Shown in pieces: positions 8,201-14,200 of a DNA stretch of 64,000 nucleotides. Positions within the stretch are counted from its first letter, which is position 1, and every line of letters begins with the position of its first letter. The position numbers were made by a program. This DNA comes from Escherichia coli O127:H6 str. E2348/69 (GTDB taxonomy: Bacteria > Pseudomonadota > Gammaproteobacteria > Enterobacterales > Enterobacteriaceae), in the NCBI RefSeq assembly GCF_000026545.1, contig NC_011601.1; one strand, given 5' to 3'.

Positions 8201-11200
8201 TTTCGCCTTCCGTCGCCTTAATAAAGGCAAATTGTAAGCGAATACCGTTATCGCGCATTTTTGTCACCCGCTGCCAGTCGATCCGCTCCTGCCAGCGCGA
8301 AACATCTATTCCGTGAATGGTGTAACTGGCAGGAATGCGAATAGCGAAAGATTTAACCGGGCGATAACCGTAGAAGTGAATGTAGTCTTTAATCTGAATT
8401 GCTGTCGAATAGAAAAAGTTCACCGTCTGACGCGGATAAATTGCAACGATGGAAATTAGCCCAAGAGCGCATAATAAAACGGTGAATTTTTTTCGACTGG
8501 TGATTCTCAACTGCATTGGTTTCATCCCTGAATGTCAGCACCAAAGGCTGACAATAACCAAAGCAGCTATAGTACGGTGCTCACCACCAGGCGTGGAAGT
8601 GGTGAACCGGACCAATACCGTGACCAACTTCCAGCGTGTCGGCCTGGGCTAATGCCGATGAAAGCCAGCTTTTTGCCTCCTGTACGGTGTCAGCCCAGTT
8701 TGTATGGCGCGGGCGTAGTGCAGCCAACGCCGCAGAGAGCGTACAACCAGTGCCGTGAGTGTTTTTGGTCATAATGCGCTGTGCGGTAAACCGTTGTTCA
8801 CCCTCGCGGGTAAACAGCCAGTCCGGGCTTTGCTCATCATCCAGATGACCACCTTTCATTAGCACTGCGCCACAGCCCATCGCCAACAGCGATCGCCCTT
8901 GTTCCAGCATTTCCTGTTCGGTGCGCGCGTGTGGCGCGTCGAGCATGGCGGCTGCTTCGGGCAAGTTTGGTGTTATTAATGAAACCTGTGGCAATAATCG
9001 ACTGCGTAGCGTGGCAACTGCCGAAGGTGAAAGCAGCGGGTCGCCGCTTTTTGCCAGCATAACGGTGTCGAGTACCACGTTTTGGATCTGATAACGTTGC
9101 AACCGTTCTGCCACCGCTTCAACAATATCGGTTTCCGCCAACATACCGATTTTAGTGGTGTCGATTCGCACATCGCTGAACACCGAATCGAGCTGGGCGG
9201 CGACAAAATCAGGCTCAATGCGATACACCGACTGTACGCCACGGGTATTTTGCGCCACCAGTGCAGTAATAACTGAGCAACCATAAGCGCCAAGTGCCGA
9301 GAAGGTTTTAAGATCGGCCTGAATCCCCGCACCACCACTCGGATCAGTACCGGCAATCGTCAGAGCGTTAATTCGTTTCATGCCTGCACCTCCTGCGCCA
9401 ATTGCCAGAGCGCATCAAGGAAATGTGGAACAAAACTACCTGGCCCCTCGCTTCTGGCGACTGCGCGTTCTCCGGCTTGTTTCATCCAGTGACAGGCAGA
9501 TGCGACATTTTCCAGCGTATCGCCTGGTAGCGCACAACAGGCAGCGACAACCGCCGATAATGCACAGCCAGTTCCTACCACTTTGGTCATTAGCGGATCG
9601 CCACCGTGAATGCCAACGATACGATGTCCATCGGTAACATAATCCACCTCGCCAGTGACCACGACGATTGCGCCAGTTTCCCGTGCCAGTGTTTGTGCAG
9701 CAGGTATCGCGTTAGCTGCGGCATCAGTGGTATCCACTCCCCGTCCACCATTAGCAACGCCAGCTAATGCCATGATTTCCGAAGCATTACCACGTATGGC
9801 GGTTGGCTTATGGGACAGAAGTTCCACACAAAAACGGCGGCGATAATCGAGCGCACCAACCGCAACCGGATCAAGCGTCCAGGGCGTTTGTGCTTGCTCA
9901 ACGGCAGCACTCATCGCTTGCGCTCGTGGCTGCGTCAGCGTGCCAACGTTAATCAACAAGGCACTGGCGATAGCCGCAAACTGACTGGCCTCTTCGGTTT
10001 CGATAACCATTGCTGGCGATGCACCGAGCGCCAGCAATGTATTGGCAGTAAAGGTTTGCACCACATCGTTGGTCATACAGTGCACAAGAGGGGAATGTTG
10101 GTGAAAAAGGTGTAACGCGTGCGCAGATTGCGCTGAACTCAGCAGGTCGACTTGCATAGTTTGCTCCTGCCATAACGTGAAGAAGCAATGACCTGGTGGT
10201 CCGTGACTTCCCTACGCTGGCATTATCCAGATCAGGTGATACGGGTATTTCTCAGCCTTCACGCAGAAGGGCACCCCGAGTCGTTTGGTTGCGATGATAA
10301 ATCGCAGAGGAGGATGGTAATGTCCAGCGCACGCGTTGTAAACGAAGAAAAACGGCGGTATTACAATAACGTTGTGAAATTATTTGATATAAGAATCCAG
10401 CACCTTCAGAACGACATCCAGATCTTCTTCACGTTTTAGCTCATCCCCCTGGTGAACGATGTGTTCCGTCAGATGGCCTTTAATCACTTCCCGCATCAGA
10501 CCGTTTACCGCGCCACGGATAGCAGCAATCTGTTGTAAAACTGCAGCGCATTCATGCGGTTCGTCGAGCATTTTCTTGAGCGCCACGACCTGGCCCTGAA
10601 TCTTACTGGCACGCGCTTTCAGTTTCTGTTTATCACGGATTGTATGAGACATGGCAACACCTGGTTAACAAGAATATGAAAAATCATAGCACTATTAATC
10701 TACTGGGGGGTAGTATCAGGTACTGGGGGGGAGTAGAATCAGATTGCCGAATTAATACTAAGAATTATTATCATGACCGAATTTACAACACTTCTTCAGC
10801 AAGGAAACGCCTGGTTCTTCATCCCCAGCGCCATCTTACTTGGTGCGCTTCATGGCCTAGAACCGGGGCACTCAAAAACGATGATGGCGGCGTTTATCAT
10901 CGCCATCAAAGGCACCATTAAACAGGCGGTGATGCTCGGACTGGCAGCAACCATTTCGCATACCGCAGTGGTCTGGTTAATTGCCTTTGGCGGGATGGTG
11001 ATCAGCAAACGCTTTACTGCTCAATCAGCAGAACCGTGGCTCCAGTTGATTTCCGCAGTGATCATTATTAGCACCGCGTTCTGGATGTTCTGGCGTACCT
11101 GGCGCGGCGAACGCAACTGGCTGGAGAATATGCACGAGCATGATCATGATCATGAGCATCATCACCACGATCACGAAGATCACCACGACCATGGACATCA

Positions 11201-14200
11201 TCACCATCACGAACATGGCGAGTATCAGGATGCCCATGCACGAGCCCATGCCAATGACATTAAACGACGCTTTGATGGTAGAGAGGTCACCAACTGGCAA
11301 ATTTTGCTATTTGGCTTAACCGGTGGCCTTATCCCCTGCCCGGCAGCAATTACCGTGCTGTTGATTTGCATTCAGTTGAAAGCCCTGACACTGGGCGCAA
11401 CACTGGTCGTCAGTTTCAGCCTCGGCCTGGCGTTAACGCTTGTCACCGTAGGCGTTGGCGCAGCAATCAGCGTTCAGCAGGTCGCAAAACGCTGGAGCGG
11501 ATTTAACACTCTCGCTAAACGCGCTCCCTATTTTTCCAGTCTGTTGATTGGCTTAGTTGGTGTGTATATGGGCGTACATGGCTTCATGGGCATAATGCGA
11601 TAACTCAATCCTTTAGGCTTGCATGTTATCTTCAGCCCAGGATGATTCTTAAATCAGCTATTTCCGCTGACTCTCTGCTCGCTAAGGATGCTTTTAGGGC
11701 ATCCTTTCATTTACACTTTTTACGAAATCATGGGATCACTAACAAAATATCGCTTGTCAGTTATATTGTATGGCAGGAAAGATATGCGACTGATATTACA
11801 GATCCCCAAAGTGGAGAGTTTATGACCATTAAAAATAAGATGTTGCTGGGTGCGCTTTTGCTGGTTACCAGTGCCGCCTGGGCCGCACCAGCCACCGCGG
11901 GTTCGACCAATACCTCGGGAATTTCTAAGTATGAGTTAAGCAGTTTCATTGCTGACTTTAAGCATTTCAAACCAGGTGACACCGTCCCAGAGATGTACCG
12001 CACCGATGAGTACAACATTAAGCAGTGGCAGTTACGTAACCTGCCCGCGCCTGATGCCGGGACGCACTGGACCTATATGGGTGGCGCGTACGTGTTGATC
12101 AGCGACACCGACGGTAAAATCATTAAAGCCTACGACGGTGAGATTTTTTATCATCGCTAAAAAAAAGCCCCCTCGGAGAGAGCTGTCTCTTGATCAGATC
12201 TCCTGATCAAGAGACTTCATCACCAGGTAACCCTCAACCATATCCTGAAGTCTGAACCAGCCATCCCACATGACTACCCAACCGGGGCGACCGGTGCGTT
12301 TGCTGTCATGCCATCGCCCCAGTTTCGCCAGTTTCAGACAGGCCCATTTCAGTGTCGGCATCTGTGACGGAAGCGGTTTTCCTTCCAGCTTAACCCACAG
12401 CAGTTTCCACTCTGTCGGCGTCAGTATTTTCTCACAGCTGTCATTTTGTGTTTCTTCACTGATACCGCCCTGCCGCAGGCCCAGCACCCGCACCGCGATA
12501 AACGCCTTGATAACCACCATGCGCTCGAGGTTATCCCGGGTCTGCATTCGCAGCGATTCCACACATGTACCACCACTTTTCCACGCCTTGTGGTATTCCT
12601 CTATCAGCCAGCGTCGCTCGTAATGGCTGACGATACGTCGCGCATCGGCGGCACTCGCCACTTTTTCTGACGTCAGCAGATGCCAGCAGGCGCCGTCCTC
12701 TGCCTGCTCCCGGCAACAGACATACGTGAGCGGGAGCGCCTGGCCGCTGTTGTCGGGATTTTTTATGCTGACTTCGCTGTAACTGATGAACATCCGGGCC
12801 TGGCGGGCTGCCCGCCCGCCTTTTTGCATCACATTCAGCGTGTGGCTTCCCGCGGTTGCCAGGACTTCCGGCAGTTCGAAGAGCTTGCCGGGTGCTTCTT
12901 CCAGCCGGCGATTCTGTGCTGCACGCACCACGAAGCGCTGCCCGTGGCTGACTTTATAATGCAGGTAATGCCAGATATCCGCTTCCCGGTCACAGACAGT
13001 GATTACCCGTTTCTGTATCTCCCCCAGCCGTTCGGCCATGCGCTCCGAAGCCTGCTGCCAGCGGTAACTTTCTTTTTCTTCATAGGGACGTTCTTTTCGC
13101 TGGTGCTTAACACCGTAGGTGTCCGTGGCACGACTCCAGCGCTGCTGTTCGATAAGACCGACTGGCAGGGCGCTGTCGGGGGCGTACATCAGGACAGAGT
13201 GAGCCAGCAGCCCGCGCGTCTTCGGGTTAGTGGTGGTATTCCCCAGGTCATCAGATGCCGTACTGTGACTGAAGTTAATGGTGGTGGTGTCTTCCAGCGC
13301 GAGGAGCAGCGGATGAGCCTCACATGCCCTTACAGTGGCGGTAAATCCGGCTTCGGCAATGGCTTGCGGGGACACAGACGGGTTACGTATCAGGCGGTAC
13401 GCACCTTCAACCTGAGCAGTGGACTGGGATGATTTCACAATAGAAAGACCTGCATGCTGAGCGAGAGAAGAGGCCAGTGACACAAGGCGTCGTGTACGAC
13501 GCGGATCACCGAGACGGGCATGTCCAAACTGCTCGTTAGCCCATGAATAACAATCAGAAAGTACCATAACAGACCCGAAGAAAATGAAATATAAGAGAAG
13601 ATCAACGGGTGAGGAAAAAGTTCAAAAAATCGCTGCCGGGGAGGAAGGAAACTACCGGATGGAAAGAGTCCCCCTAAAGCAGACTGACAGACATCACAAA
13701 TCCCCGGGTGGGGATTTGTGTATAAGAGACAGCGGAGAGAGGGGGGAATGCAGACACCTTAATATTTTTATTATTAGCCACTTGCTCGTCTTGCTTGTTA
13801 TTAGTCGTATTTCACGTTGATTAATGCGGTTGCCTCCAGTGCGCCAGATTTAACTTTGTTTGTATCGTAGACGTAGTAACTGGCCGTTATCGGAATTGAA
13901 ACCGTTGTATCTGTAAGTTTTGACTTTGCCGCAATTTCTTTTAAATTTGTATATCCTTTACTGCTGTTAGTGATATTTAAAAGTGTGACTGGCGTACCAT
14001 TACTTTCAAGAATAAATCCTACGCCATTATCTTCCGCACCTTTCAGGATCGTGTTGCTGTTGGTTAACAAGTCAGAACTTGATAAATACACCTGCATTTT
14101 CCGTGATGTTTGATTTTGTTGACCTAATAAATTTTTACAACGCAGAATAATATCCCCTTTTTTACTATTTATTGTTGTTTTGTTACCTGTGGCTGGTAAT

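What the first reader, a model, noticed from the sequence alone, without database searches (positions are those of the whole stretch)
10699..11240. RcnR G-tract operator pair and unusually long His-rich loop in RcnA
Two TACT-G(6-8)-AGTA sites lie in the divergent rcnR-rcnA region, and RcnA carries a His/Asp/Glu loop with about 17 His in 30 residues. Both are known features of this Ni/Co efflux locus; the loop is a low-complexity region whose length can vary between strains.
Basis: established knowledge. Interest (0 to 1): 0.15.

Follow-up and report, generated by a model that had tools for sequence, protein, structure and literature searches.

The report
Known E. coli nickel/cobalt efflux switch
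This is the well-studied E. coli rcnR-rcnA nickel/cobalt efflux locus, with its two repressor-binding sites unchanged and a histidine-rich transporter loop two residues longer than in the lab strain, so it is ordinary.

Summary
The window is the E. coli E2348/69 (EPEC O127:H6) chromosome. The divergent genes are rcnR (10380-10652, -) and rcnA (10773-11603, +), and rcnB follows rcnA. Two sites lie in the 120-bp intergenic region, which is base-for-base identical to K-12: TACTGGGGGGTAGTA (10701-10715) and TACTGGGGGGGAGTA (10721-10735). They match the published RcnR operator TACT-G6-N-AGTA, and none is expected by chance. RcnR is 100% identical to the K-12 protein.

RcnA carries 18 His in 28 residues (121-148; 11133-11216), against 17 in K-12. 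The loop is not unusually long for E. coli. It is the common 274-aa form plus one extra CATGAT (His-Asp) hexamer. O157 alleles are 7 to 11 residues longer.

Loop-length polymorphism is confirmed, with 15 to 41 residues between fixed anchors. It behaves as an in-frame hexanucleotide VNTR. The same region is already a typing locus in Salmonella (STTR5 in yohM) and in Klebsiella.

The exact window allele occurs in 3 of 5,426 complete genomes, all O127:H6. In passing, rare strains elsewhere carry one or three operator copies instead of two.

Verdict: already known, low interest.

The parts
10380..10652 (-). rcnR, the Ni(II)/Co(II)-responsive repressor of the CsoR/RcnR family (90 aa)
   Evidence: NCBIfam NF011613 equivalog, 197.3 bits against a cut-off of 138; Pfam PF02583. 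The protein is 100% identical to K-12 RcnR, with the N-terminus, His3, Glu34, Cys35, His60, Glu63 and His64 present (ligand list from PMC7055735).
10701..10715 (.). RcnR operator site 1, TACT-G6-T-AGTA
   Evidence: Exact pattern match with 0 expected by chance. Identical to K-12 and to 6 other strains aligned. Matches the published consensus TACT-G6-N-AGTA.
10721..10735 (.). RcnR operator site 2, TACT-G6-G-AGTA (a run of 7 G)
   Evidence: It lies 20 bp downstream of site 1. The two 20-bp units are 15/20 identical.
10773..11603 (+). rcnA, the Ni/Co efflux membrane protein of the NicO family (276 aa)
   Evidence: NF007454, 565 bits against a cut-off of 195; Pfam PF03824 NicO, 237 bits. RefSeq WP_000134611.1 is annotated rcnA. 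Hydrophobic stretches flank the loop on both sides.
11133..11216 (+). His/Asp/Glu-rich run of the central RcnA loop (residues 121-148; 18 His in 28)
   Evidence: TRF finds periods of 6, 9 and 18 within 11139-11216. P is about 8e-23 against the His frequency of the rest of the protein.
11139..11150 (+). Two tandem CATGAT (His-Asp) hexamers. One is extra relative to the common B2-type allele (SE15, DFK.1) and gives the 276-aa form.
   Evidence: Codon-level comparison. The full-length, same-length match of the loop DNA is 100% identical in only 3 of 5,426 genomes, all E2348/69 or O127:H6.
11822..12160 (+). rcnB, the periplasmic accessory protein of the efflux system (112 aa)
   Evidence: Pfam PF11776 RcnB, 67.8 bits. 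Identical to K-12 RcnB. RefSeq annotation.

Best explanation
This is the canonical E. coli rcnR-rcnA-rcnB nickel/cobalt efflux locus, here in EPEC strain E2348/69.

Without metal, tetrameric RcnR binds the two tandem TACT-G6-N-AGTA sites in the shared 120-bp control region and represses both rcnA(B) and its own gene. Ni(II) or Co(II) binds at the N-terminus/His3/Glu34/Cys35/Glu63/His64 site and releases the repressor, so the RcnA exporter and periplasmic RcnB are made.

The central loop of RcnA is a His/Asp/Glu metal-binding stretch. It is encoded by imperfect in-frame hexanucleotide repeats (CAT/CAC + GAT/GAC/GAG). Replication slippage, or recombination between these short repeats, changes its length between strains. 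The window's allele is the common 274-aa form plus one CATGAT unit.

Shown here: sequence identity of all parts with the characterised K-12 system, and the polymorphism. Taken from the literature: repressor binding and metal release. Inferred: the slippage mechanism and the loop's role in metal capture.
For: - Source: 100% match over 1,224 bp to E. coli E2348/69, with rcnR/rcnA annotated there and in 5,350 of 5,426 complete genomes.
- Family HMMs are above their curated cut-offs for RcnR and RcnA, and Pfam matches RcnB.
- The intergenic region is 120/120 identical to K-12, the strain in which the operator was characterised. Both sites fit TACT-G6-N-AGTA, with 0 expected by chance.
[quoted passage not shown] The tandem type-1 site and its A-form G-tract are described in PMC3902906.
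- RcnR is identical to K-12 with all its ligands.
- Loop: 18 His in 28 residues; TRF periods 6, 9 and 18.
- Every indel in the 17 alleles read is in frame, and most add or remove whole hexamers or lie between short direct repeats. Examples: +CATGAT here, +CATGAG, +CACGAG, (GACCAC)5/6/8 in O157, (CACGAG)5, and a 39-nt deletion whose ends share CAT-CAT-CAC.
- The orthologous loop is the STTR5 VNTR in Salmonella yohM (PMC5183578) and a 6-bp MLVA locus in Klebsiella rcnA (PMC3948817).
Against: Nothing in the sequence argues against it. Several limits apply.
- No binding, expression or transport data exist for this strain.
- The simple promoter scan does not place convincing -35/-10 boxes around the operators. 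Its only + strand hit near rcnA ends 1 nt before the ATG. How the sites overlap the promoters therefore rests on the literature, not on my analysis.
- PDB sequence searches found no solved structure of RcnA, and only paralogues (FrmR, InrS, CsoR) for RcnR.
- Whether RcnA's loop acts in transport or only as a chelator is stated to be unresolved (PMC11247825).
Confidence: 0.95

Rival explanations
1. The loop-length difference (+His-Asp) in this strain is an adaptive change. On this view the His-loop VNTR, and the operator copy number elsewhere, act as a tunable 'contingency' device that sets each lineage's Ni/Co buffering or efflux threshold.
For: - Four different +6-nt insertions give the same 276-aa length in the same 20-nt stretch in different strains.
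- Repeat number varies within the O157 clade: (GACCAC)5, 6 and 8.
- Operator copy number varies from 1 to 3 in about 15 genomes from several lineages, through at least two different duplication events.
- All loop indels seen are in frame.
Against: - In an evenly spaced sample of the ranking, 51 of 60 genomes keep the modal loop length.
- All but about 15 of the 40 top-ranked records keep two operators.
- In-frame survival is what purifying selection alone would leave.
- The window allele is confined to one clonal lineage (3 genomes), as expected for a neutral, vertically inherited change.
- No phenotype data exist.
- Salmonella STTR5 is treated as a neutral typing marker under stabilising length constraint.
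Confidence: 0.08
2. The His-rich stretch and the G-tract sites are chance low-complexity sequence or assembly artefacts with no function.
For: Homopolymer and short-repeat regions are error-prone in some assemblies. For example, DFK.1 lacks one base in site 2, and several records span 296-300 bp where 301 is the norm. These could be sequencing errors.
Against: - The window sequence is identical to a finished E2348/69 genome and to two other O127:H6 genomes.
- Both sites are invariant in 7 of 8 aligned strains, including K-12.
- Chance expectation for the sites is 0, and about 1e-22 for the His run.
- The reading frame is intact and the full-length family HMM matches.
Confidence: 0.01

Closest known systems
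E. coli K-12 rcnR-rcnA-rcnB locus (b2105-b2107), RcnR tandem type-1 operator
   Same: Same gene order and orientation. The RcnR and RcnB proteins are identical. The 120-bp control region is identical, with both TACT-G6-N-AGTA sites.
   Different: - RcnA is 276 aa rather than 274.
- The loop reads HEHDHDHEHHHHDHEDHH... rather than HGHDYEHHHHDHEHHH..., with 18 His rather than 17.
- There is one further substitution, L217 rather than I.
- An ISEc13 copy follows rcnB here.
Common phylogroup-B2-type rcnA allele (e.g. SE15, DFK.1; WP_000134616.1)
   Same: The loop DNA is identical apart from one unit.
   Different: The window has one extra CATGAT hexamer at 11139-11150. In addition, A209 here is T in that allele.
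Salmonella Typhimurium MLVA locus STTR5 in yohM (= rcnA), and the Klebsiella pneumoniae MLVA 6-bp locus in rcnA
   Same: An in-frame 6-bp VNTR that encodes the His-rich stretch between the two membrane halves of the same transporter, with copy number varying between isolates.
   Different: The E. coli repeats are more degenerate (a compound of CATGAT, CATGAG, CACGAG and GACCAC) and most genomes share one length. I could not establish that any E. coli MLVA locus (such as CVN014) lies in rcnA.
Expanded His-rich loop of cable-bacteria RcnA
   Same: The same protein family and the same loop position.
   Different: The cable-bacteria loop is 100-123 aa with 33-53 His. The E. coli loop is described there as 67 aa with 17 His. 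The window's loop belongs to the short, canonical class.

Membership tests
RcnR (CsoR/RcnR, PF02583) Ni/Co repressor | Sequence match above the curated equivalog cut-off | tested here: met
   NF011613, 197.3 bits against 138; PF02583, 75.8 bits against 22.8. 100% identical to K-12 RcnR.
RcnR (CsoR/RcnR, PF02583) Ni/Co repressor | Metal-ligand set: N-terminal amine, His3, Glu34, Cys35, Glu63, His64 (plus His60) | tested here: met
   All are present at those positions. The ligand list comes from PMC7055735.
RcnR (CsoR/RcnR, PF02583) Ni/Co repressor | Ni(II)/Co(II)-dependent release from DNA | not testable with these tools
   Needs EMSA, footprinting or reporter assays. Inferred from identity with the K-12 protein and DNA.
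RcnR tandem type-1 operator | Two TACT-G6-N-AGTA sites in the rcnR-rcnA intergenic region | tested here: met
   Sites at 10701-10715 and 10721-10735, with 0 expected by chance. The 120 bp are identical to K-12. Consensus.
RcnA (NicO family, PF03824) Ni/Co exporter | Full-length family match above the cut-off | tested here: met
   NF007454, 565.2 bits against 195, over residues 1-276; PF03824, 237 bits.
RcnA (NicO family, PF03824) Ni/Co exporter | Central His-rich loop between hydrophobic membrane segments | tested here: met
   18 His in residues 121-148. Kyte-Doolittle hydrophobic stretches end at about residue 107 and resume at about residue 177. The cytoplasmic location of the loop was not tested.
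RcnA (NicO family, PF03824) Ni/Co exporter | Ni/Co efflux activity | not testable with these tools
   Experimental. No solved structure was found by PDB sequence search.
In-frame hexanucleotide VNTR (STTR5-like) | Tandem 6-bp units whose copy number differs between isolates while the frame is kept | tested here: met
   TRF period 6 at 11139-11164. Variants seen: +CATGAT, +CATGAG, +CACGAG, (GACCAC)5/6/8 and (CACGAG)5. All CDSs are intact.

The most novel reading that the evidence does not exclude
The locus may carry two slippage-prone modules: the 20-bp tandem operator unit (1, 2 or 3 copies in natural isolates) and the compound hexanucleotide His-loop VNTR. Lineages might use these to reset the threshold and capacity of Ni/Co efflux. 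On that reading, the E2348/69-specific +His-Asp allele would be one such adjustment rather than neutral drift.
Probability: 0.08. Interest if true: 0.4.

Novelty: already known. Interest (0 to 1): 0.1.

Why it matters
For this window it matters little. The analysis confirms a textbook metal-efflux switch in an EPEC reference strain, with operators and repressor identical to K-12.

Two modest points are useful.
- The His-loop length of E. coli RcnA behaves like the VNTR already used for typing in Salmonella and Klebsiella. It is therefore a lineage marker: the +CATGAT allele tags O127:H6.
- Natural strains with one or three RcnR sites exist. They would be ready-made material for testing how tandem-site number sets repression and DNA wrapping.

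Tried and rejected
- Promoter scan. It gave only weak consensus matches (4 found against 2.4 expected). It did not place promoter boxes convincingly relative to the operators, so it was not used.
- PDB sequence searches. For RcnA there were only spurious His-rich hits, and for RcnR only paralogues (FrmR, InrS, CsoR). No structural inference was drawn.
- Primary papers. Rodrigue 2005, Iwig & Chivers 2009 and Blériot 2011 are not held in the library, so their content is cited second-hand through reviews.
- E. coli MLVA loci. I checked whether CVN014, CVN007 or CVN015 correspond to rcnA. The papers read give no gene positions, so no claim is made.
- Antisense and overlapping ORFs across the His region, such as 11025-11300 (-) and 11140-11319 (+). 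They are Met/Val/Ile-rich mirror images of the His/Asp codons, with no supporting evidence, and were rejected as genes.
- G-quadruplex. Two G runs on one strand cannot form an intramolecular quadruplex, so this reading was not pursued.
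Full report
**What is there.** The window matches the chromosome of E. 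coli E2348/69 (EPEC O127:H6) at 100% over the 1,224-bp rcnR-rcnA segment. RefSeq annotation of that record gives the gene order thiD-thiM-(TPP riboswitch)-rcnR / rcnA-rcnB-ISEc13-yehA. In window coordinates:
- rcnR is 10380-10652 (-)
- rcnA is 10773-11603 (+)
- rcnB is 11822-12160 (+)

Family assignment is unambiguous. RcnR scores 197.3 bits against the NCBIfam equivalog NF011613 (cut-off 138). RcnA scores 565.2 bits against NF007454 (cut-off 195) and 237 bits against Pfam NicO. RcnB matches PF11776. RcnR and RcnB are identical in protein sequence to K-12.

**The operators.** The pattern TACTGGGGGGNAGTA occurs exactly twice in 64 kb: at 10701-10715 (TACT-G6-T-AGTA) and at 10721-10735 (TACT-G6-G-AGTA, a run of seven G). 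It occurred in none of 100 dinucleotide-preserving shuffles.

The two sites are 20 bp apart, start to start. The two 20-bp units are 15/20 identical, so the pair is itself a short tandem direct repeat.

The entire 120-bp intergenic region is identical to K-12 MG1655. Both sites are invariant in seven of eight strains aligned.

This is the published RcnR operator. [quoted passage not shown] It is classed as a tandem of two type-1 CsoR/RcnR sites. Recognition is attributed to minor-groove contacts at the TACT/AGTA arms and to the A-form character of the unbroken G-tract (PMC3902906, citing Iwig & Chivers 2009). Blaha et al. 2011, known to me by title only from the reference list, report that the shared site represses both rcnA and rcnR.

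The metal ligands listed for RcnR are the N-terminus, His3, Glu34, Cys35, Glu63 and His64. All are present.

**The His-rich loop.** RcnA residues 121-148 (11133-11216) read HEHDHDHEHHHHDHEDHHDHGHHHHHEH: 18 His, 5 Asp, 4 Glu and 1 Gly. The rest of the protein has 6 His in 248 residues, which gives a binomial tail of about 8e-23. No other stop-free 30-residue stretch in any frame of the window reaches even 8 His.

Hydrophobic stretches end near residue 107 and resume near residue 177. This is consistent with a central loop between two membrane halves. The literature describes the loop as predicted cytoplasmic, and gives 17 His for the K-12 protein (PMC11247825).

At the DNA level the run is built of imperfect 6-, 9- and 18-nt repeats.

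I read 17 alleles. The stretch between the invariant anchors WLEN and EYQDAH has these lengths:

| Length (aa) | Strains |
|---|---|
| 15 | MS 16-3 |
| 23 | LD67-1 |
| 28 | K-12, SE15, DFK.1 |
| 30 | this window and three others |
| 33 | CRE389 |
| 35 | O157 strain 7784 |
| 36 | 13E0780, SCPM-O-B-12142 |
| 37 | O157:H7 Z1767 |
| 39 | Res13 |
| 41 | O157:H7 86-24 |

Outside the loop the proteins are 97-100% identical.

In a sample of 60 genomes taken at even steps down the ranking of 5,354 matches, 51 had the K-12 length (165 nt for my 171-nt probe). The remainder spanned 149-204 nt, or were partial.

The window's loop is therefore the modal length plus two residues. It is not unusually long, since O157 alleles are 7 to 11 residues longer.

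Its origin is simple. Compared with the common B2-type allele (SE15, DFK.1), GAG-CAT-GAT-CAT-GAG has become GAG-CAT-GAT-CAT-GAT-CAT-GAG. That is one added CATGAT unit, at 11139-11150.

Only ten genomes give an ungapped, same-length match to the loop probe. Only three of these are 100% identical, all E2348/69 or O127:H6.

I read three of the other same-length alleles, and each carries a different 6-nt gain in the same short stretch: +CATGAG, +CACGAG, and a GAT-rich variant. Within the O157 clade the (GACCAC) unit is present 5, 6 or 8 times. LD67-1 has (CACGAG)5. The 39-nt deletion in MS 16-3 lies between two CAT-CAT-CAC repeats.

Every variant keeps the reading frame. This is the behaviour of an in-frame hexanucleotide VNTR changing by slippage or short-homology recombination. 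The mechanism is inferred from the pattern, not observed.

The behaviour is already known for this gene in other enterobacteria. [quoted passage not shown] I could not show that any E. coli MLVA locus is rcnA.

**How it works (best explanation).** Apo-RcnR occupies the two G-tract sites and shuts off the divergent promoters. Ni(II) or Co(II) binding releases it. RcnA, with periplasmic RcnB, then lowers cytoplasmic Ni/Co.

The His/Asp/Glu loop supplies a dense set of metal ligands. Whether it feeds the transport path or merely chelates metal is stated to be unresolved.

What I have shown is the sequence identity of every part with the characterised K-12 system. The regulatory and transport steps come from the literature. 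The promoter geometry could not be recovered with the simple scan. No solved structure of RcnA was found, and only paralogues of RcnR.

**Seen in other strains while checking.** The operator pair is not quite universal. A probe built on strain MS1657 showed the following:
- Nine records have a 100-bp spacer carrying a single hybrid site, TACTGGGGGGGAGTA. This is a 20-bp deletion between the two repeats. It occurs in at least two unrelated backgrounds, for example the chicken isolates MS1657 and VTB96929v, and human isolates such as 97-3250.
- Six records have about 20 extra base pairs. In the three I read there are three sites. A 20-bp duplication of the site-1 unit is seen in N47 and in O157:H7 NE 1092-2. 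A different, 23-bp duplication of the site-2 unit is seen in WW2.

DFK.1 lacks the A of AGTA in site 2. Several records are 1 to 5 bp shorter than expected across the spacer. Either could be a homopolymer sequencing error.

My literature searches returned no paper on these variants. That is a statement about the searches, not proof of novelty.

None of this applies to the window itself, which has the canonical pair.

**Verdict.** The feature is already known, and interest is low (0.1).

The most novel reading not excluded is that operator number and loop length are selected tuning devices. I give it a probability of about 0.08. The dominance of a single form in the population and the clonal confinement of the window allele fit neutral variation under purifying selection.

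Noticed in passing
window 12183-13732 (target duplications at 12174-12182 and 13733-13741): A 1,550-bp ISEc13 (IS4/Tn5-like) element lies inside the GC-rich terminator hairpin between rcnB and yehA. Its ends are CTGTCTCTT and AAGAGACAG, and it carries a 457-aa transposase (12194-13567, -). It is flanked by a 9-bp target-site duplication, CGGAGAGAG. K-12 has only an 81-bp spacer here.
   Followed up: partly
other genomes: L011 379-478, L015 190-289 (one site); L012 and L013 190-329, L014 190-332 (three sites): The number of RcnR operator sites varies in natural E. coli. Nine records have a 20-bp deletion that leaves one hybrid site. Six records have an insertion of about 20 bp; in the three I read (two different duplication events) this gives three sites. 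The window has the normal two.
   Followed up: partly
L003 574-692 (strain DFK.1): Site 2 reads TACTGGGGGGGGTAG, so the A of AGTA is missing and the spacer is 119 bp. This is either a real operator mutant or a homopolymer sequencing error. Several other records span 296-300 bp where 301 is usual.
   Followed up: no
L016, L007, L017 (O157 strains 7784, Z1767, 86-24); L020 (LD67-1); L004 (MS 16-3): The rcnA loop shows true VNTR behaviour within and between lineages. (GACCAC) is present 5, 6 and 8 times in O157 strains. LD67-1 has (CACGAG)5. MS 16-3 has a 39-nt in-frame deletion between CAT-CAT-CAC repeats, which leaves a 15-residue loop with 9 His.
   Followed up: yes
window 10192-10288 (-): A TPP riboswitch (RF00059, 71 bits) lies upstream of thiM, directly next to the 3' end of rcnR.
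   Followed up: no
window 31224-31297 (+): An OrzO-P antitoxin RNA (RF02083, 91.5 bits) is present, which suggests a zor-orz type I toxin-antitoxin locus in this window.
   Followed up: no
window 51672-51752 (-) and 63409-63486 (-): A Peptidase-S11 cis-regulatory RNA (RF03039, 72.8 bits) and the nucleoid-associated RNA naRNA4 (RF02564, 77 bits) both score above their gathering thresholds.
   Followed up: no
window from about 17347 onward (L001 12968-13224): yehC, the fimbrial chaperone gene, is annotated as a frameshifted pseudogene in the E2348/69 RefSeq record.
   Followed up: no
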